DNA of 64,000 nucleotides from positions 87,792,001-87,856,000 of the forward strand of contig OX597825.1 in the NCBI GenBank assembly GCA_951406725.2, written 5' to 3'. The position numbers and the translations under genes are program-made. The first letter of the stretch is position 1, and each line of letters opens with the position of its first letter. The DNA is from Octopus vulgaris (Eukaryota). The notes under the pieces are model-generated. The model had not been told where the DNA came from, did not search any database, and worked only from the letters and a program-made list of their open reading frames with translations. Positions 6,284-34,339 of the stretch are shown here, in pieces.

Positions 6284-6812
6284 AAAGGTCAATCACAAAA
6301 AAGATAGATGGCATGTCAGACCTTGACTACTGGGGTAGACTAGAGAAGCTGAAATTGTATTCACTCCAACGACGCCGTGAACGCTACATTATCTGTATGA
6401 TGTGGAAAATATTCCATCAGCACTGTCCGAATGATGTTGGCATCACCTTCAAAATGCATCCAAGGCTTGGACCACGTGCCATCCGTCCACAACAAAAATC
6501 TAAATCGCATCACATAACAACAATACGGCACAACTATTTCACCTCAATTGGACCCGCTCTCTTCAACATTACACCAGGACACGTCAAAAAAGAAACTGAC
6601 CACACAAAATTCAAGAAGTCTTTGGACAAATTCCTTCAAACAGTACCGGACAAACCATCCACACCCGGATATGTCTCCGCAAACAATAACTCTCTGCTCG
6701 AATGGGCCTTGGTGCCCAAATCCTGAACTGAAAGACTTCGCCAGGTGGTGCTATTAAGTTAGACATGGCCTGGGCCAATACTGGCCAAAAACCTTTCTAA
6801 GTTATTCTAAGT
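6284..6812 (+). mobile_element. CR1-group LINE, short 5'-truncated copy 1 (ORF2 C-terminus + 3'UTR)
   Basis: Translates [31 protein letters not shown]...[16 protein letters not shown]. Highly similar to 8297-8830, flanked by (TA)n on both sides, with a CTAAGTTAT-type tail repeat. Confidence 0.9.
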
Positions 6813-9302
<2,490 letters not shown>

Positions 9303-9502
9303 ATACTACAAAATTAGAGAATGGAGAAACATACTTAAATCAATAAAACATCAACTATCCGATGATACTCAATCCATACTTTAATACACCATTACATAGG
9401 AGTAAAGGCAATATATAAAATGAAATGAGATATACAGTAATAGTAAAAGTAAAAAGATAAAGAGATATAAGTAAAAAATTACAAATACAATATGCAAATA
9501 AA

Positions 9503-9622
9503 TCAAAACTGACAGCTGTTTCGGCAGTGAGGACAGTCATACCTCATTTAACCTATAAGCCATAAAGGCAGGTATAAATGAGGCATTAACAAAGATGCCC
9601 CACGGCCTCTTCAGAGAATTAA
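9503..9622 (-). ncRNA. Mirror copy of the hammerhead ribozyme in the left arm
   Basis: Plus strand reads CTGACAGCTGTTTCGGC...GCCTCTTCAGAG, the exact reverse complement of the 11313-11420 motif. Confidence 0.75.
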
Positions 9623-10936
9623 ATTAAATTTGTTATAATAGTGAAAAATATTATATAATCATATACATTTGGTCTTTTTGTACTCACCTTAATTTGTATC
9701 TTATGTTATTCACTGATAAACCTTTTTCATTTTTTTCATTTTCTCATTTACATGCATTTTGCTTTATAATTGTTACCAGCCTCATATATTTAGTTTATAT
9801 CTATAGTCCTCTGGATCTGTACTTTAAACTATCCTTCCATACATATTTACTTTCAACAATATAAAATATATATATTCACTTTATTTATTTTTATTTATTT
9901 CCCATTTTATTGTAATATTATCAATATTTGCATCTAGTCTTCTATTTATTTATTTATTTGCCTATTTAAGTGTGGATGTTTACATACATATCAAGTCATT
10001 TAATTTGTTACCTATTTATTCTTTACTTATTTACTTATACTGGTGTAGTTTTATACATACATATCTATCATTTATTTTTATTTATTTTAATAATATATGA
10101 ATACATATATACTAGTTTGTACTTATAATTATGTGTATAACCGTATTTATTCCTTCGTATTTATTCCTTTTTATTTATTTTATCTCTTTTCATATTAAGT
10201 CTTTATAATATAAAATTTATTTAAAATTTCTGTGATGTTCTCATAAGCGTTTACATTAATACTTCCCCCTCTATTTTTTATTGCCTAAACTGGTATATTT
10301 TGGCACTATATTTATTAAGTTAATAAGTGACTTATTTATAATATCTAAATTAATATATTTTATATTTTATATTTTATAATTTAGCGTACTTTAAATCATA
10401 ACAAACTTACGATAAACCTAACAACCGTATGTTTACTCTGCAACAAACCGGTGTTACAAATTTTAAGTTACCCATGAAATAATTATCTGAATTAGTAACA
10501 TACTGATATTTAAAAATACATTTATATCTTAATTAAATATTTTATAGAATGCATGGATGGTTCTTTTTTTGTTATTGAGGCTCAGTTATAATTTTGAAGG
10601 ACTTAGTGTTAGCATGGTTGCTTCCCTATTTGTTTATCTAAGTGTTAGTTGTTGCTTATGATTATGTATATGTACAAGTGTATGTATATACATATAACTA
10701 TGTGTGTATGTGCGATTGATCTGTAGATGCGTGTGTGAATATTGGCGTTCCCTGACTAACCAACCGTATAATTTTCTTTTGTGATTTAAATTTCAAACCA
10801 ATAGCCAATCGAATTAATCTAAATTTTCTTTACCTAGTGGTCAGCATTTCTTAACTCATAGTTATTTCGATCTTGGAAGGATGGACTTGGTGATAACTTA
10901 ACTGTATCTATTTTTATTATTTTTTATTATTATTAC

Positions 10937-10970
<34 letters not shown>

Positions 10971-11306
10971 AGTAATTTTTATTAACTTTTATAGCTTTAG
11001 AATTTTATGAACTGTACCACGGATTTAATTATTATTATTTTTCATCTCCATATGTGTTAGCCCCTTTTTTTATAAAAAAAACTATTAGCTAAATATGAAT
11101 GATATCGGTACTTATTAATATTATATATACACTGTTATATATTTTGTTTTATTTTGTTCTGGTTACCTTCCTTTTTGTACAAATATGTATTATATTATAC
11201 AAGTGTAGCATTATGATGTATAAGTTTTTATATTTTACTTTTTTATATTTTTATATTTATATGTATATGATTATATAATATTTTTCACTATTATAACAAA
11301 TTTAAT

Positions 11307-11426
11307 TTAATTCTCTGAAGAGGCCGTGGGGCATCTTTGTTAATGCCTCATTTATACCTGCCTTTATGGCTTATAGGTTAAATGAGGTATGACTGTCCTC
11401 ACTGCCGAAACAGCTGTCAGTTTTGA
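11307..11426 (+). ncRNA. Type I hammerhead ribozyme with extended stem II
   Basis: CT-CTGAAGA (11315-11321), then GGC...GCC stem II with nested hairpins GTGGGGCA/TGTCCTCAC and CCTCATTTA/TAAATGAGG, then GAAA (11407-11410), palindromic CAGCTG stem III and TC^AG. Predicted cleavage after C11418. Confidence 0.75.
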
Positions 11427-11796
11427 TTTATTTGCATATTGTATTTGTAATTTTTTACTTATATCTCTTTATCTTTTTACTTTTACTATTACTGTATATC
11501 TCATTTCATTTTATATATTGCCTTTACTCCTATGTAATGGTGTATTAAAGTATGGATTGAGTATCATCGGATAGTTGATGTTTTATTGATTTAAGTATGT
11601 TTCTCCATTCTCTAATTTTGTAGTATTAATTTACGGTAATATTATTACCCTTACCCATTTAATACAATAGATGAACTGATTGCTTGACAATTTCTAACAT
11701 CTATGTATTAATTTTTGTTGGGTACCTATCTAGCAGTATATTGGATATATATTATCCCATGGTGGGTTGAATTTTCAACCCCTATCTCATTTTATA

Positions 11797-21769: not shown

Positions 21770-22492
21770 CAAGAAGGTCGATATACCTCGTAGGATGAGT
21801 TCCTGGATCTTAAGAACTTTCCGGTCCAGAGAACAAGGTGTCATCATACCACTTTTCTCCTCCTTTGTACGGCCACACCTTGAATACTGCTGCCCACTGT
21901 GGTCTCCCCATACAAGACAAAACATCTCCAGAATTGAGTCACCCAGAGGGCACTCACTAAACGAGTTGAAGGCATGGCTGCTCTCGATTATTGGGATCGC
22001 CTTAAAGCCTTGGAACTCTACTCCCTCCAGCATCGCCGTGAGCGGTACATCATTTGTACGATGTGGAGAATATACCGCCAACTTTGCCCAAACGACCTTA
22101 ACATTAGCTTCAAGGTTCATCCAAGACTGGGACCACGGGCCATACGTCCCCTGCCCAATTCAAGATCACAACATACATGTACACTGCAACATAATTTCTT
22201 TTCCTCAACAGGCCCTGCCCTATTTAACATTGTCCCGAGGGAGATCAAAGAGGAAAAGGATCCCATCAACTTTAAACGAAGTCTGGATAGATTCCTTCAA
22301 AGAATACCAGATAAGCCACCCATAATTGGATACAACTCACCCAACAAAAACTCACTACTTGAACAAAACTTGACTTAAACAAAACTTGAGTTAAACAGGA
22401 TTCGAATAATCCTATCCTGTGGTGCTATTAAGTTAGACATGGCCTGGAGCAATCTTTGGTCGAAACATATCTAGGTTATCTAAGTTATATAA
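21769..22492 (+). mobile_element. CR1-group LINE, 5'-truncated copy 3 (diverged subfamily, one frameshift)
   Basis: Translates RRMSSWILRTFRSR...RPHLEYCCPLWSPH and [14 protein letters not shown]...FKRSLDRFLQRIPDKP. Has the same 3' motif GTGGTGCTATTAAGTTAGACATGGCCTGG. The 5' flank is (CT)n(TA)n. Confidence 0.9.
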
Positions 22493-27372: not shown

Positions 27373-27416
<44 letters not shown>

Positions 27417-27699
27417 TAGCATTAAAGACCCGTCGTTGTCGGGTCATAGTGCTAGTGCATGTATATATGTGTATATATATGTGTACATATTACATGTACA
27501 TCTATATATATACATCTACACATAAAATACAAAATACAAAGTTATATCTTGATATCGCTAGTGATAACAATACTCAAATTATATAAGAGACTGGAATTGT
27601 TAGCCCGTCTCTTGTAATTTAGATCAATTGTATCTTGTCCTCCCTCTTGTATAGAAGTGTGGCTACAATCCAGCCTACCTCTACTTCGGGGGGGAGGGG

Positions 27700-27908
27700 G
27701 GCATTTAAATTTTTTTCCGGGACGTCCTACGCCCGAGATATAAAGGTAAAAATAAAATATTTCCACTTTGCAAGTTCGAATCGAGTACTCCCTTGCACGC
27801 TCCGTTGATTCGAACCTTGCTTCTATTGTGGCGAATTTACCGCCTCTGATTAGATACCTTTCATAGTCGCACCAAGACACTTTTCGAAGGTGCTTTCCTC
27901 CATGTTAT
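27700..27908 (-). pseudogene. Decayed ORF1 homolog, part downstream of the insertion site
   Basis: NMEESTFEKCL, YLIRGGKFATIEARFESTERAREYS and LPLYLGRRTSR align with INMEAIEEAF, YMTKGLEYGTITVQFKSEKAARNIA and FPSYLNRKTTR of the intact ORF1s. Confidence 0.7.
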
Positions 27909-28052
27909 TTCTTTATTACCCACCAGGGGCTACGAAGAATGGCGGACATAACAAAACATGGGGGACATAGAACAATATGATTAAATTTATGAGCAAATGA
28001 AAATGAAAAAATGATAATATGAAAGCGATGCTAACGGCCCCCTCCGCCAGCA

Positions 28053-29416
28053 TCACTTACCTGTCCTTTTGTTTTCACTGTCACCTGAATGTTCATTCCC
28101 AATACGAAGACCATCCATATCCATTCTTACTCCGAAACTGTCCTCCATATATTCCACGAATTCATCGCTCATTCTTGTATCTTTCACCTCCCAATTCTCC
28201 CTTTCACACCTCAACACAAACTCATCTATATTCTTCTTTTCCAGCACTGCATATCTGGTCCCATCCATTTCATACCATTCATACTCCTCCATTACCCTTG
28301 TAACTTCTTTCTGTTCAGTCACAATATAAATGTTCGGCCTGGGTTCGTTTTCAAACTCTTGTCTGTCTGTATTGTTATTTTTCTTTTGTTTCTTGTTGGA
28401 GAGGAGCGGGTGGGTTCACTGTCTGCAGGGGAAGGGTGGGATTCAGAGGGTGCGGGTGGTGTTGGGGTGGGTTGGGGCTTCGCACAGTTTTTCTTTTTCT
28501 TTCTTTTTCTCTTTTTTCTTCCTTCTTCCCACTCTTGTTGCATCTCTTCTTCTTCTGTCGTTTCTTTTTCCGTTTGGTTCTCTTTGGTTTCTTCCTCTTT
28601 TGGGGCTTCCGCGACGATTTCCTTTTCTTTTTCCTTTGGTGGGGGAGGGCAGTAGGCTCTTATGTGACCCCTCAGGCCACACTTGTAGCACCTGGGCGCC
28701 CTACCCTCCACCCACACTCTCATAATAATATTTCCAGTTTTTATACTGTCCGTAAGCTTTTCTATAACTTCCGCCTCCGTCTGTATGTTCATTACTAGTG
28801 TGGCACCTCTCACGCCTTCATATTTCATAATGGCGTGGAGGATGTCCACTTTATCTTCATTTCCTTTGATAACCGCAGCCGTTATTAATTCGCCCTCTAG
28901 GTGTGGAGGTATTCCTTCCACCCTAATTCTGGTGGTCTTTCTATTCAAATACGAGGGGAACAAGTAAAACTTTTCTGTACTCACCACCTTGGCTGCTATA
29001 TTCCTGGCTGCTTTCTCACTTTTAAATTGTACCGTTATGGTTCCATATTCTAATCCTTTTGTCATGTACACAATTTCTTCTCCTGTCTGTTTGAAAGCCT
29101 CTTCAATTGCTTCCATGTTAATCACTTCCATTTTTCTACCTCTATTCATAAATACTTTATATTTAATGGTTCTACGATGGAACCAGTCTCCGCGCCCTGC
29201 TAGAGGGAACAGCTCAACCTCTCCGTTCTCCTCCTCCTTCATGAACTCCTGGAAGTCCGTCAACTTAGCCAGGTCTATCTCTTTTTCTGTTGACTTCTTC
29301 GTTATACCTGCGTAGGTGCTTTCCATTTTTTTCACTGCCAACTCCTCCTCAGATGTCGACGAATTTTCAGAGAAATTTCTCCCTTCCATCTCATCCGTTT
29401 GGTAGAGGCGGCTCAT
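28053..29416 (-). pseudogene. L1/Tx1-type ORF1 (RRM-like + CCHC knuckle), unit A, one frameshift near 28340-28400
   Basis: Likely ATG at 29416 (MSRLYQ), position-homologous to the starts of units B and C. Contains CYKCGLRGHIRAYC. The C-terminal 89 aa continue in ORF 28053-28322. Confidence 0.8.
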
Positions 29417-29456
29417 AGTCGCCTCCGACCGAAAAACGGCCTCCCGAACAGAAAAC

Positions 29457-29510
29457 GTGCGACGCACAGAACCAGTGCGACGCACAGAACTAGTGCGACG
29501 CGAAACCGCA
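29457..29510. repeat. Three tandem 18-bp CpG-rich units in the unit A 5'UTR
   Basis: GTGCGACGCACAGAACCA / GTGCGACGCACAGAACTA / GTGCGACGCGAAACCGCA. Confidence 0.85.
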
Positions 29511-29769
29511 CCAACCGACGTTCCAATTCCGCAACCACAATTCACTTTTTGTTCTTTTTTCTTTTTTAACCGAATTTTACAGAGCGCCAAAAAACGCGAC
29601 CTTTTTTCTCTACATTGTATTTCTTTATTACCCACTAGGGGCGACACAGAGGGGGACACCAAAAGACATGGGGACAAAGAACATTATAATTAAAATTTAT
29701 GAAAAATGAATTGTTAAGTGAAAGAAAATGATATTATGAAAGCGATACCAGCGGCCCCATCCGTCAGCA

Positions 29770-31188
29770 TCACTTACCTGTCCTTTGTTTTTCATCGTCC
29801 CTTGAATGTTCTTTGCCAATACGAATAAATTCCATATCCATTCTTACTCCGAAATACTCATCCATATTTTCCACGAATTCATCGCTCATTCTTATATCTT
29901 TCACCTCCCAATTCTCCCTTTCACACCTCACCATAAACTCCCCTATGTTCTTCTTTTCAATCACAGCATACCTAGTCTCACCAACTTCATACCATTTATA
30001 CTCTTCCATTAGACTTTTAACTTCTTTCTGTTCAGTCATAGTACAAATGTACGGCCTGATATCGAATTCAATCTCTTGTCTGTGTGTGTATTCTTTTTTT
30101 TCTTTTGTTTTCTTGTTGGGGGAGCGGGTGGGTTCAATGTCTGCATGGATAGGGTGGGACTCAGAGGGTGTGGGTGGTTTTGGGGTAGATTGGTGTTCCA
30201 TAGTATTTTCTTTTTTTCCACGCATTCTTCTCTTCCTCTTATTTCCAGCTTCCTTCCATTTCTGTGTATTCTCTTCCTCTGTTTCCTTCTCCTCTGGTTT
30301 CTGCTTCTCTCTCTCTGGTTCGGAATCCATTTCTTTCCCTGGGGGAGGGCAGAAGGCTCTTATGTGACCCCTCAGGCCACACTTGTAACAACGTGGAGCC
30401 CTGCCCTCCACCCACACTCTCATGATCACGTCTCCCAGTCTGATGCTTTCCGTCAGGTCCACCAGTACCTCGGTCTCTGCCTGTACGTTCAGCTCCACTG
30501 TTACGCCTCTCCAGCCCTCGGACTTAACCGAGGCATGGAGAATATCCACTTCGTCCTCGTGGCCGCTGATCACAGCCGCCACAATCCATTCTGCCTCCAC
30601 GTTTGGTGGCACTCCCTCCACCCTTATTCGTGTAATCCTCCTGTTTAAATACGTAGGTAATAGGGTTACCTTTTCTGACTTCACCGGCTTCGCCGCCATC
30701 TTCCTCGCTGCAGACTCAGTTTTGAAATGCACAACTACGGTACCGTACTTGGATCCTCGAGTCAGAAAATTTATTTCCTCCTCAGTTCTTCGCAGGGCCT
30801 CCTCTATCCATTCCATGGTTACAACTTCTGCCCTCTTCCTTTCGTTTGCGAACACCCTGTAACTAATGGTCCTCTTATCATACCATTCTTTTCTCCTGGG
30901 TGTCGGTGATAGTTCCACCTCACCGCTTTCCTTTTTCATGTATTTCTGGTAACTTGGCAACTTGGCCATGTCTACCCCTTTCTCTTCCACCTTCTTGGTT
31001 ACACCGGCATAGGTATAACCCAGCTTCTCTTCCAAATTCCTTGCTGCCATTTCTAGCTCTTTCTCAGACGTAGGCAGGTCTGATAAAGACTCGAAAATTC
31101 CAGCCTTTTCTTCCATCAGCTTCATTGCAATTGCCTGTTCCAGTTCCTCATCTGTCGTGGACAAGTCTGTTAGAGACTCATAGTCCAT
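29770..31188 (-). CDS. L1/Tx1-type ORF1-like nucleic-acid-binding protein, unit B (472 aa, intact)
   Basis: Acidic coiled-coil-like N-terminus, TYAGV motif, RRM-like RIRVEGVPP region, CX2CX4HX4C knuckle, K/R-rich NLS-like stretch and a conserved C-terminal domain. The unit spans ~29621-31253. Confidence 0.88.
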   Translation of the reverse strand: MDYESLTDLSTTDEELEQAIAMKLMEEKAGIFESLSDLPTSEKELEMAARNLEEKLGYTYAGVTKKVEEKGVDMAKLPSYQKYMKKESGEVELSPTPRRKEWYDKRTISYRVFANERKRAEVVTMEWIEEALRRTEEEINFLTRGSKYGTVVVHFKTESAARKMAAKPVKSEKVTLLPTYLNRRITRIRVEGVPPNVEAEWIVAAVISGHEDEVDILHASVKSEGWRGVTVELNVQAETEVLVDLTESIRLGDVIMRVWVEGRAPRCYKCGLRGHIRAFCPPPGKEMDSEPEREKQKPEEKETEEENTQKWKEAGNKRKRRMRGKKENTMEHQSTPKPPTPSESHPIHADIEPTRSPNKKTKEKKEYTHRQEIEFDIRPYICTMTEQKEVKSLMEEYKWYEVGETRYAVIEKKNIGEFMVRCERENWEVKDIRMSDEFVENMDEYFGVRMDMEFIRIGKEHSRDDEKQRTGK

Positions 31189-31402
31189 TTCCTTCTGTCT
31201 GACAGACCGAGAACGGCCGCCAAAACAGAAAAAGTGTAACGCGCTGAACGAGCTTTTTCTTTATTACCCACTAGGGGCGACACAGAGGGGGACACCACGA
31301 AACATGGGGACATATAACATTATAATTAAACTTTATGAAGATGAATTGTTAAACGAAAAAATGATTAAATGAAAGCGATACCAACGGCCCCGTCCGTCAG
31401 CA

Positions 31403-32818
31403 TCACTTACCTGTCCTTTGTTTTTCATAGTCACTTGAATGTTCTTTGCCAATACGAATAAATTCCATATCCATTCTTACTCCGAAATACTCATCCATAT
31501 TTTCCACGAATTCATCGCTCATTCTTATATCTTTCACCTCCCAATTCTCGCATTCACACATCACCATAAAGTCACCTATGTTCTTCTTTTCAATCACAGC
31601 ATACCTAGTCTCACCAACATCATACCATTTATACTCTTCCATTAGACTTTTAACTTCTTTCTGTTCAGTCATAGTACAAATGTACGGCCTGATATCGATT
31701 TCAATCTCTTGTGTGTGTGTATTCTTTTTTTTCTTTTGTTTTCTTGTTGGGGGGGAGCGGGTGGGTTCAATGTCTGCATGGATAGGGTGGGACTCAGAGG
31801 GCGTGGGTGGTTTTGGGGTGGATTGGAGTTCCATATTATTTTCTTTTCCACGTATTCTTCTCTTCCTCTTACTTCCAGCTTCCTTCCATTTCTGTGTATT
31901 CTCTTCCTCTGTTTCCTTCTCCTCTGGTTTCTGCTTCTCTTTCTCTGGTTCGGGATCCATTTCTTTCCCTGGGGGAGGGCAGAAGGCTCTTATGTGACCC
32001 CTCAGGCCACACTTGTAACAACGTGGAGCCCTGCCCTCCACCCACACTCTCATGATCACTTCTCCCAGTCTGATGCTTTCCGTCAGGTCCACCAGTACCT
32101 CGGTCTCTGCCTGTACGTTCAGCTCCACTGTTATGCCTCTCCAGCCCTCGGACTTAACCGAGGCATGGAGAATATCCACTTCGTCCTCGTGGCCGCTGAT
32201 CACAGCCGCCACAATCCATTCTGCCTCCACGTTTGGTGGCACTCCCTCCACCCTTATTCGTGTAATCCTCCTGTTTAAATACGTAGGTAACAGTATTACC
32301 TTTTCCGACTTCACCGCCTTCGCTGCCATCTTCCTCGCTGCAGATTCACTTTTAAAGTGCACAACTACGGTCCCGTACTTGGATCCTCGAGTCAGAAAGT
32401 TTATTTCCTCCTCAGTTCTTCGCAGGGCTTCCTCTATCCATTCCATGGATACAACTTCTACCCTCTTCCTTTCGTTTGCGCACACCCTGTAAACAATGGT
32501 CCTCTTATCATACCATTCTTTTCTCCTGGGTGTCGGTGATAGTTCCACCTCACCGCTTTCCTTTTCCATGTATTTCTGGTAACTTGGCAACTTGGCCATG
32601 TCGACCCCTTTCTCTTCCACCTTCTTGGTTACACCGGCATAGGTATAACCCAGCTTCTCTTCCAAATTCCTTGCTGCCATTTCTAGCTCTTTCTCAGACG
32701 TAGGCAGGTCTGATAAAGACTCGAAAATTCCAGCCTTTTCTTCCATCAGCTTCATTGCAATTGCCTGTTCCAGTTCCTCATCTGTCGTGGACAAGTCTGT
32801 TAGAGACTCATAGTCCAT
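31403..32818 (-). CDS. L1/Tx1-type ORF1-like protein, unit C (471 aa, intact)
   Basis: Near-identical paralog of unit B. The unit spans ~31254-32974, and its tail AATAAAGAAAAA joins into the unit B 5'UTR. Confidence 0.88.
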   Translation of the reverse strand: MDYESLTDLSTTDEELEQAIAMKLMEEKAGIFESLSDLPTSEKELEMAARNLEEKLGYTYAGVTKKVEEKGVDMAKLPSYQKYMEKESGEVELSPTPRRKEWYDKRTIVYRVCANERKRVEVVSMEWIEEALRRTEEEINFLTRGSKYGTVVVHFKSESAARKMAAKAVKSEKVILLPTYLNRRITRIRVEGVPPNVEAEWIVAAVISGHEDEVDILHASVKSEGWRGITVELNVQAETEVLVDLTESIRLGEVIMRVWVEGRAPRCYKCGLRGHIRAFCPPPGKEMDPEPEKEKQKPEEKETEEENTQKWKEAGSKRKRRIRGKENNMELQSTPKPPTPSESHPIHADIEPTRSPPTRKQKKKKNTHTQEIEIDIRPYICTMTEQKEVKSLMEEYKWYDVGETRYAVIEKKNIGDFMVMCECENWEVKDIRMSDEFVENMDEYFGVRMDMEFIRIGKEHSSDYEKQRTGK

Positions 32819-32971
32819 TTCCTTCTGTCTGACAGACCGAGAACGGCCGCCAAAACAGAAAAAGTGTAACGCGCTGAACGAGCGAAACGCGAAACCGCGT
32901 CAACGCTTTTTGTTCTTTTTTTTACCGAATTTCAGGAGCCGAAAAAAAAAACACGGAGCCGAAAAAAACAT

Positions 32972-33070
32972 GACCTTTTTCCTCTACATTGTATACTTTA
33001 TAGACAATAGTCTTTTTTTAAATTTAATTTTATTATTATCCATCTGGACTATTCCATTTCTGCACGCTAA
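32972..33070 (-). pseudogene. Decayed ORF1 homolog, part upstream of the insertion site
   Basis: RNGIVQM...KF and KKTIVYKVYNVEEK (frameshift in an A-run) align with ENGEVEL...WFHRRTIKYKVF and KRTIVYRV. Confidence 0.6.
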
Positions 33071-34339
33071 TTTTATTTTTAATTTATTCCCATTCATGTG
33101 AAACCACTTATGCAATTTTATACCAATTGCTATTTTTACTTTTGTTATGTTACGATTATATTATACTTTAGTTTGATTTTAATTATTACTTACTACATAT
33201 AATTCAATTGTTATTATTATCATTATTGTTAAAGTGAAAGTATCTGATATAAAATAGAGAAACGTTTTTGTTTCTCTTTTAACACGTAATACTGAAATAG
33301 TGGAGAAGATATGATATTGCTATGGGCTCGCTCTAGGCAAGACGTTGAACATTTTTTTTGCCCATGAAACTACATGGATCCTAAGTAAGGCATGTGTAAA
33401 ATTTGAATGAAATCGGTTGTGTAGTTCTCAAGTTTTAGGGAAACACACAGACAGACAGGCAGACACACATTCTCAGTTTTATATATATAAAGATATATAT
33501 ATGTGTGTGTGTGTGTGTGTGTATTTATATATTGATGTCTGTGTTTGAAATGTTACGCTTACACACGCAGTATACACAATGCGGAAGCAATATCTCCCTA
33601 CATACACACACACACACACGCAGGCACACATAGTATTTCAGATAATATTTTGTAATTCTCTGTTTTAATGTTCAATGTTTTGAAACATTGAAACAAGCTG
33701 CAAGACGAAAAACAGAAGCTTTCCTAATTCTACCTTGACGATATTTGCTTAGTTTACATTTAAATTCTTTATTTTTCGTAATATGTCAATAAACTGAGTC
33801 TACAACATACAGAAATAAATTCCATCGAAAAACATTCCTCAGCAGAACGGAAACCGTTTTTTAAAAGTGAAGACATCGTATTTAAATAACCAGTTTGTTT
33901 TGAAACAAAGTTATATCATGTAATACATTTAGCAACAAATGCTTTATATATTTTATATAATATGTTTACTTGGATCTTCGCTCATTGCAGAAATCTCTGT
34001 TAACCTTATACATAGCATGTGTAACTTAATATACATAAAAATAGTGCTAAAATTGATTTAGCTTTGAATGTATCATATATATATGTATATATATAAGTTC
34101 TATCTTCAGCGTTCAATTAACAACAAAATTGATGTATGTGCAATTCTCTCAATGTTTATTCTCTGAAATAATTATTATATTCAGCTTGCCATAATTATCT
34201 TCTATAAATATTTCGAAATTGATATAAACAACGAATTATAATTTAAAGATAATTCACGTAGAATACTGATCATACGGTCTATCAAAGCATTGATTTATCA
34301 GCATCTGAAATCCTGATGAGGATGTGGATCCTGTACTAC

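What the first reader, a model, noticed from the sequence alone, without database searches (positions are those of the whole stretch)
27700..33070. The array sits inside the ORF1 of a related element, with a 23-bp target-like duplication: possible site-specific hyperparasite
Seen: the two flanks translate as consecutive pieces of one decayed ORF1 homolog. Upstream reads NGIVQM..KKTIVYKVYNVEEK and downstream reads NMEESTFEKCL..YLIRGGKFATIEARF..PLYLGRRTSR, colinear with the intact ORF1s. GACCTTTTT(C/T)CTCTACATTGTAT occurs at 32972-32994 and at 29598-29620 (1 mismatch), on both sides of the B+C block; a few of these bases may belong to the element 5' end. Known: Tx1-clade LINEs are often sequence-specific, and Xenopus Tx1L inserts into another transposon with a long TSD. 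Inference: different subfamilies hit the same site repeatedly, so a retroelement may be targeting and disabling the ORF1 of a relative.
Basis: partly seen in the sequence, partly recalled or inferred. Interest (0 to 1): 0.85.

Follow-up and report, generated by a model that had tools for sequence, protein, structure and literature searches.

The report
Half-LINEs stacking at a Helitron hotspot
Three cut-down jumping genes sit head to tail at one exact spot inside a small rolling-circle transposon, and across the genome that spot is used only in shortened versions of the transposon, which likely means they land at an accidental promoter rather than attacking the dead gene scrap they interrupt.

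Summary
The anatomy is largely confirmed; the "disabling a relative's ORF1" reading is not supported. Three ORF1-only retroelements interrupt a decayed ORF1 fragment, which lies inside a ~1.1-kb non-autonomous Helitron (27416-33493) with at least 316 empty copies. The 23-mer is 19 target bases plus 4 bases of the element's 5' end. An autonomous APE-RT LINE with the same 3' tail uses the same site, and insertions are independent (LINE copies 99% alike in Helitrons 95% alike).

Two natural experiments show the ORF1 codons are not the target:
- Helitrons lacking ~300 bp of the fossil are still hit at about the same distance (10 of 100, versus 0-1 of 100 for that sequence in undeleted copies).
- The long ancestral Helitron, with a nearly intact ORF1 piece and the same local site, is not hit (0 of 273, versus 44 of 792).

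The position depends on upstream context, most likely a TATA promoter made by a deletion (inferred). Tx1 families that target DNA transposons and carry passengers are known. This scan already reported this system at other loci of this genome.

The parts
32976..33493 (-). Left (5') half of a short non-autonomous Helitron; starts with TC at 33493 after an A at 33494
   Evidence: 87-92% identical to upstream flanks of 15 other arrays or empty sites
33037..33039 (-). Breakpoint of a ~555-bp deletion relative to the long Helitron form (lost: 5' UTR and N-terminal ORF1 of an old family LINE)
   Evidence: window flank aligned to L174/L175
32976..33037 (-). Upstream piece of the ORF1 fossil carried by the Helitron
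32996..33002 (-). TATA-box-like heptamer formed by Tyr-Lys codons of the fossil, 27 nt before the units' 5' junction and 39 nt before the main insertion point of the empty site; promoter function inferred
   Evidence: intact in 38 of 39 filled and 29 of 30 empty sites, so not discriminating
32976..32994 (-). Outer copy of the 19-bp target-derived repeat; extra G at 32981 likely added at the junction
31254..32975 (-). Unit C: full-length ORF1-only element, ORF 32818-31403 (471 aa, one CCHC knuckle)
   Evidence: 98 genome matches
29621..31253 (-). Unit B: same family as C (96.7%), begins inside the 5' UTR; ORF 31185-29770 (about 471 aa)
29602..29620 (-). Inner copy of the 19-bp target-derived repeat between B and A
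27906..29601 (-). Unit A: second ORF1-only family (about 80% to B/C over the aligned part); ORF starts at 29416, frameshifted near its C-terminal end in this copy; likely the first insertion
27605..27905 (-). Downstream piece of the ORF1 fossil; 12 bp of the empty site are missing between it and the upstream piece
27416..27604 (-). Right end of the Helitron: hairpin 27421-27456, then CTAG at 27419-27416 before a T; contains, unused here, the sequence that is hit in the deleted Helitron form (about 27599)
   Evidence: hairpin z -5.2

Best explanation
Three ORF1-only retroelements sit head to tail at one fixed point of a short non-autonomous Helitron; they were likely inserted one after another by the endonuclease and reverse transcriptase of an autonomous LINE that shares their 3' tail, and the point is likely chosen by a promoter-like context upstream, not by the ORF1 codons around it.

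Steps:
1. Shown: an old family LINE left ~1 kb of its 5' end in a Helitron (long form). A 555-bp deletion gave the short form, and a further ~300-bp deletion gave a third form.
2. Shown: only the short and the further-deleted forms are hit, 38-39 nt behind a TATA-like heptamer.
3. Inferred: the first deletion brought Helitron upstream sequence close to that heptamer and created a promoter, whose bound host factors or open DNA draw the LINE particle. The endonuclease would then choose a weak local motif.
4. Shown: the autonomous element leaves an 11-12-bp duplication, and single A- or C-type units leave a reproducible 12-bp loss.
5. Inferred: the loss arises because the cDNA end is joined at the A-run near the start site.
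6. Inferred: later units insert at or near the 5' junction of the resident one, so the array grows at its 5' end (here A, then B with the 19-bp duplication, then C inside B's 5' UTR, or B+C as one read-through copy).
For: - Helitron ends: against the criteria in PMC11417382 (passages).
- Empty sites: 316 matches.
- Partner ORF2, 1131 aa, has Exo_endo_phos, RVT_1 and zf-RVT above cut-off; the last ~30 nt are shared by 7 unit types.
- Specificity: of the first 100 of 341 F/D-type 3' ends, 33 abut the main Helitron site, 5 the deleted-form site, 36 the 5' end of another unit and 26 something else (by eye). 28 A/C-type 3' ends abut the main site.
- Independence: among 17 filled loci, LINE pairs 99.3-99.8% alike lie in Helitron halves 92.5-96.5% alike, rho 0.06 over 136 non-independent pairs. 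The filled/empty label needs 17 changes on a 49-row tree versus 16.5 shuffled (4 short empties left out).
- Experiment 1: 10 of the first 100 of 183 deleted-form sites continue into a family element, and all 10 fetched hold an insertion. 0 of the first 100 of 590 undeleted copies do so at the same sequence, with 1 unclear. Fisher p 0.002, or 0.01 if the unclear one counts.
- Experiment 2: A/C/E junctions in 44 of 792 short versus 0 of 273 long sites, p 3e-6. The 2 long matches to the F/D leader pattern are point variants. Fetched filled loci: 39 short, 0 long, 3 unclear but short-like. Long and short copies are equally diverged, 0.952.
- The 12-bp loss is seen in 6 of 6 fetched single insertions.
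Against: - No transcription evidence was obtained, so the promoter is inferred from spacing alone.
- The TATA heptamer is intact in filled and empty sites alike, is also present in the unused long form, and is mutated in two filled copies (L104, L170).
- The insertion point follows a short local motif when the spacing varies by 3 nt (L102, L105), so distance is not strict.
- 26 of 100 F/D-type 3' ends lie elsewhere; two truncated off-target copies read in full (L123, L134) have no TATA box upstream.
- C-type units also pile up at non-Helitron sites (C4, C14, C17, C19 arrays), so for them the resident family member may matter more than the Helitron.
- Trans-mobilisation by this particular LINE is not shown; a second autonomous family (82% identical) exists.
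Confidence: 0.55

Rival explanations
1. Same anatomy, but ORF2p reads the DNA itself: a long or two-part recognition site that spans the deletion junction more than 50 bp upstream, plus a short motif at the nick. No host transcription factor is involved.
For: Tx1L endonuclease is sequence-specific in vitro (PMC1950540, passages). The main and deleted-form insertion points share a short motif, and the point follows it when spacing shifts. Both natural experiments fit equally well.
Against: Long and short forms are the same over about 50 bp upstream of the heptamer, the heptamer region itself and the downstream flank, more than an APE endonuclease is expected to contact (general knowledge). The downstream side can be swapped without loss.
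Confidence: 0.27
2. Targeting is fixed by the RNA: transcripts from filled short Helitrons carry a Helitron leader that pairs with the upstream target during 5' joining, as in R2, so only the form that matches the source copies completes insertion.
For: The identical 12-bp loss in single A and C insertions. Units with local leaders of up to ~60 bp and identical truncated 5' junctions in one array (C14). An array on C7 whose spacers match another target, i.e. a read-through copy. R2 model in PMC6895275 (passages).
Against: The long form offers the same ~80 bp of homology upstream of the insertion point and is still unused. 5'-truncated copies without any leader also sit at the site (L103, L115).
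Confidence: 0.1
3. One reading: a hyperparasite recognises the ORF1 of a related LINE and disables it.
For: The site does lie inside ORF1-derived DNA of the same lineage, and the ~60 bp just upstream that all used forms share are ORF1 codons.
Against: The fragment is a dead Helitron passenger. The better the ORF1 is preserved, the less it is hit (0 of 273 vs 44 of 792). Deleting its downstream 300 bp does not stop targeting. No hit was found at the homologous codons of live A-type ORF1 (low power). No live LINE with this ORF1 turned up: all 7 matches to the undeleted frame pattern were Helitrons.
Confidence: 0.04
4. One ancestral filled Helitron was copied as a whole by rolling-circle transposition, so the repeated site is cargo, not targeting.
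For: Junctions are identical between loci, and both Helitron ends are intact in this window.
Against: LINE and Helitron divergences are uncoupled. Filled copies are not clustered on the tree. Contents and truncation points differ between loci.
Confidence: 0.03

Closest known systems
Tx1L in Tx1D (Xenopus); Tx1-Mar and SINEU in Mariner-N4_AMi; Tx1-9_AMi in Harbinger (PMC4494074, passages plus sections 14 and 15; PMC6719617 and PMC1950540, passages)
   Same: An APE-RT LINE inserts at a fixed place of a non-autonomous DNA transposon; non-autonomous passengers use the same place; tandem copies are separated by a duplication; hitchhiking is excluded.
   Different: The host is a Helitron. The passengers are several protein-coding ORF1-only families, not SINEs. 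Arrays are long and mixed. Use of the site depends on context more than 50 bp upstream and switches on in deletion derivatives. None of these appear in the passages read.
ORF1-present non-autonomous LINEs: HAL1, HeT-A, Ag-Sponge (PMC5786205, passage)
   Same: 5' UTR, ORF1, short 3' part, no reverse transcriptase; HeT-A also forms head-to-tail arrays with autonomous partners (PMC5537684, search listing only).
   Different: From the L1/Tx1 group in a mollusc-type genome; interstitial rather than telomeric; site-specific; mostly without a poly(A) run.
TRE5-A of Dictyostelium (PMC5391098, abstract only)
   Same: A non-LTR element placed at a fixed distance from a promoter element, proposed to be guided by transcription complexes.
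   Different: TRE5-A goes ~47 bp upstream of Pol III genes; here the site is just downstream of a TATA-like box in another transposon, and tethering is only inferred.
R2 5'-junction formation by pairing with the upstream target (PMC6895275, passages)
   Same: Reproducible small target loss and 5' joining to upstream target sequence.
   Different: R2 has a restriction-like endonuclease and an rRNA target.
Non-autonomous HLE1 Helitrons with captured fragments (PMC11417382, passages)
   Same: 5' TC, 3' hairpin plus CTRR, between A and T; internal foreign DNA; deletion subfamilies.
   Different: The passenger DNA is the 5' end of a LINE of the lineage that now lands in it.

Membership tests
Helitron HLE1, non-autonomous (host repeat) | 5' TC and 3' CTRR preceded by a hairpin | tested here: met
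   criteria
Helitron HLE1, non-autonomous (host repeat) | Inserts between A and T without duplication | tested here: met
   A at 33494 and T at 27415 on the minus strand; the same ends in most of the 30 empty copies viewed, many in TA microsatellites where a duplication could be hidden
Helitron HLE1, non-autonomous (host repeat) | Ends shared with an autonomous RepHel element | not tested
   no search for the autonomous Helitron was run
L1/Tx1 group LINE (partner) | ORF2 with APE endonuclease, reverse transcriptase and C-terminal zinc motif behind a separate ORF1 | tested here: met
   best solved relative is human L1 ORF2p, E 9e-65
Tx1 clade | RT phylogeny groups with Tx1L, Keno, Kibi, Koshi | not testable with these tools
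   no named Tx1 references were on hand; only 1 of 25 homologs carries a name, an automatic 'Transposon TX1' label at 26% identity
Tx1 clade | ORF1 with CCHC zinc knuckle (recalled feature) | tested here: inconclusive
   one CCHC motif in every ORF1 aligned, but Pfam E 0.05-0.08, below cut-off; Atlas look-alikes are zf-CCHC / ZCCHC3-type RNA-binding clusters at 0.90-0.92, a lead only
Target-specific Tx1 family (more than 20% of flanks of one type, PMC4494074 methods passage) | Flank enrichment | tested here: met
   38 of 100 listed 3' ends abut the Helitron directly, or 38 of 64 when array-internal ends are set aside
ORF1-present non-autonomous LINE (HAL1/HeT-A type) | Only ORF1, no RT, 3' end shared with an autonomous LINE | tested here: met
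ORF1-present non-autonomous LINE (HAL1/HeT-A type) | Made by internal deletion of the partner LINE | tested here: inconclusive
   unit ORF1s are distant from both partner ORF1s, so the parent was an older relative that was not found
Tx1L-like 23-bp target-site duplication | 23 target-derived bases on both sides | tested here: not met
   19 target bases at most around B+C; 12-bp loss around the whole array; 11-12-bp duplication for the partner

The most novel reading that the evidence does not exclude
An APE-type LINE and its ORF1-only passengers find their landing site through a host TATA promoter. That promoter arose by accident when a deletion in a Helitron placed Tyr-Lys codons of a dead LINE gene next to Helitron upstream sequence. 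The Helitron then multiplied about 800 landing pads that also supply the promoter for whatever lands there, and its three deletion forms are a ready-made mutant series for how a LINE acquires a new target.
Probability: 0.4. Interest if true: 0.8.

Novelty: new variant of a known kind. Interest (0 to 1): 0.57.

Why it matters
How site-specific LINEs gain or switch targets is an open question; the usual answer is endonuclease sequence preference. Here hundreds of natural target variants show that the same local sequence is used or ignored depending on context more than 50 bp away, and that the downstream side can be swapped. That makes tethering versus direct readout testable with three natural substrates. 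It also corrects the finding: no live ORF1 is attacked. The general arrangement has close precedent (Tx1-Mar/SINEU) and was already reported by this scan at other loci, which limits the score.

Tried and rejected
- Expression: no RNA holder was listed on record and all holders are contigs. Four runs were laid; they cover the unit and show empty-site junctions but cannot show starts or strand. No evidence either way.
- The bacterial promoter scan does not apply here.
- One search used a mis-spaced pattern; its zero is meaningless.
- One search's pattern could not show A-type ends followed by the Helitron half, because of its last letter; one search supplied them.
- The F/D-leader pattern also catches point variants (both long matches, and at least 1 of 22 short ones; at least 8 short ones are true insertions), so it was not used for the statistic.
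- TATA conservation in filled versus empty sites was uninformative.
- No family 3' end lies within 33 nt of the remnant's 5' end in long Helitrons. Whether they are hit further inside the remnant stays open.
- The idea of a three-ORF autonomous element was dropped: it is an ORF1-only unit followed by a two-ORF LINE.
- A 'second site' in full-length Helitrons was dropped: these hits are in the deleted form wherever the upstream side could be read (not readable for L130, L131).
- One search stopped on an error after its first table; the rest was rerun.
- Paper searches (listings only, except papers cited as read) showed no report of a LINE targeting a Helitron or a TATA-defined site. Repbase entries, subscription papers and supplements were not seen and may describe these families. 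An octopus repeat annotation (PMC13282606, passages) lists 13 recently active L1-Tx1 families without mention of targeting.
Full report
What is in the window. The minus strand of 27906-32975 holds three head-to-tail units of about 1.65-1.7 kb. Each has one reading frame with a CCHC knuckle and no reverse transcriptase. B and C are 96.7% alike; A is about 80% alike over the aligned part. The window is G000:C12:87792001-87856000 in a 2.8-Gb genome that looks octopus-like (inference from size and repeats). Unit C has 98 matches there, most in similar arrays. I fetched 19 such arrays; 14 of them show the same upstream flank as the window.

The flanks. A pattern joining the two flanks finds 316 empty sites, control 0. 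Thirty of these were aligned. They are a 1.1-1.2-kb repeat that begins with TC after an A and ends in a hairpin and CTAG before a T, the definition of an HLE1 Helitron (PMC11417382, passages). In the window it spans 27416-33493. Its middle is ORF1-derived: z 27-38 in a frameshift-aware profile test, with a control at z 1.3. A search for the undeleted frame found a longer Helitron form (273 pattern matches). It carries about 1 kb of the 5' end of an old family LINE, with up to 180 open codons, 31-34% identical to the closest family ORF1s (E 5e-32). No live LINE with this ORF1 was found among the 7 frame-pattern matches. Of the 40 matches listed, 20 were fetched, and those readable had Helitron context.

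The 23-mer. Four bases are the 5' end of the units and 19 come from the target. The mismatch is an extra G seen in 15 of 57 filled junctions and in 0, 2 and 4 of 100 listed sites. It is therefore probably added during joining, perhaps from the RNA cap (inference). Compared with the empty site, the array as a whole has lost 12 target bases. Six of six fetched single A or C insertions show the same loss with the same junctions. The 19-bp repeat around B+C is best read as the duplication of a later insertion just upstream of A.

The partner. Several arrays end in a 5.2-kb LINE with an ORF1 and an 1131-aa ORF2 bearing APE endonuclease, RT and zinc domains. It shares the last ~30 nt with all unit types and leaves an 11-12-bp duplication at the same site. 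Of the first 100 of 341 F/D-type 3' ends, 33 abut the main site, 5 a site in a deleted Helitron form, 36 another unit and 26 something else (counted by eye). That the units are moved by this ORF2 is inferred from the shared tail and site. Placement in the Tx1 clade is likely but was not tested by a tree.

Not cargo. In 17 filled loci, LINE pairs 99.3-99.8% alike sit in Helitron halves 92.5-96.5% alike. Filled-filled, filled-empty and empty-empty Helitron identities are all about 0.95. The filled label is not clustered on a tree of 49 rows (17 changes vs 16.5 shuffled; 4 short empties left out). Truncation points and contents differ between loci.

What defines the site. Experiment 1: a form that lost about 300 bp of the fossil just after the A-run (183 matches) is hit 11 nt behind the A-run, in sequence that normally lies 300 bp downstream. 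Ten of the first 100 rows continue into a family element, and all ten fetched loci hold an insertion. In undeleted copies the same sequence is unused: 0 of the first 100 of 590, one unclear; p 0.002-0.01. Experiment 2: the long form has the same local site but shows 0 A/C/E junctions in 273, against 44 in 792 for the short forms (p 3e-6; one of 45 matches was an empty variant and was dropped). Its two matches to the F/D pattern are point variants. Among fetched filled loci, 39 are short, 0 long and 3 unclear but short-like. Age does not explain this, since both forms are 0.952 alike internally. The downstream ORF1 codons are therefore dispensable, an intact ORF1 context is avoided, and something more than about 50 bp upstream of the TATA-like heptamer is needed. 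The homologous codons of live A-type ORF1, which also hold such a heptamer, show no insertion (low power).

Mechanism. The heptamer lies 27 nt before the units' 5' junction and 38-39 nt before the insertion point. That spacing fits a Pol II start site (general knowledge). I favour a promoter created by the 555-bp deletion that draws the LINE particle, with weak local choice by the endonuclease (0.55). Against it: no RNA start data, two filled copies with a mutated heptamer, a local motif that overrides 3-nt spacing shifts, and off-target copies without a TATA box. Direct readout of a long site by ORF2p (0.27) and R2-like pairing of an RNA leader (0.10; PMC6895275, passages) remain. Arrays then grow at their 5' end, and C-type units do so also at non-Helitron sites; one array on C7 looks like a read-through copy.

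Comparison. Tx1 families that target DNA transposons, with SINE passengers and tandem insertions, are described (PMC4494074, passages and sections 14-15). ORF1-only LINE derivatives are described (PMC5786205, passage). Promoter-guided placement is proposed for TRE5-A at Pol III genes (PMC5391098, abstract). Seven searches listed no paper on a Helitron-targeting LINE; Repbase, subscription papers and supplements were not seen. This scan has reported the same system at six or more other loci. A word search of its notes for the deletion-form comparison returned nothing, and only the short note texts were visible.

Verdict. A real, site-specific system and a new variant of a known kind. Interest 0.57.

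Noticed in passing
window 7243-8739 (+): 498-aa open frame with an RT domain (Pfam RVT_1, E 8.5e-31), an unrelated LINE; related fragments at 6284-6583 and 21945-22244.
   Followed up: partly
window 9303-9668 and 11261-11626: Perfect 366-bp inverted repeat with 1592 nt between the arms; nature unknown.
   Followed up: no
window 44855, 55361, 55539, 63643 and 36909, 55827, 58532: Dispersed short repeats, probably SINE copies; the same kind of repeat hosts the C7 array.
   Followed up: no
L055/L056 (G000:C1:12800698-12802348): First unit of the array differs from its neighbour by 59 A-to-G among 85 changes on the sense strand, as expected from A-to-I editing of the RNA before reverse transcription.
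   Followed up: partly
L054 (G000:C7:4985171-4990303): Three-unit array inside a SINE-like repeat whose internal spacers match the C17/C19 target and not the local flank: likely copied as one read-through transcript.
   Followed up: partly
L050 and L048 (G000:C19:67.42-67.43 Mb; C17:619-625 kb): A second autonomous family (82% identical in ORF2 DNA) with a different repeated target; C-type units stack there too.
   Followed up: partly
L173-L199: Long Helitron form carrying the 5' UTR and about 190 codons of an old family LINE; it may be the remnant of an older insertion of this lineage into the same Helitron.
   Followed up: partly
L033 (G000:C4:80.13 Mb): A further, more distant ORF1-only family (413 aa) in tandem downstream of a C-type array with no Helitron flank.
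   Followed up: no
G000:C2:138763536-138793484: Array of about 30 kb with at least 12 C-type 3' ends and a recurring foreign spacer also seen on C22 and C31.
   Followed up: no
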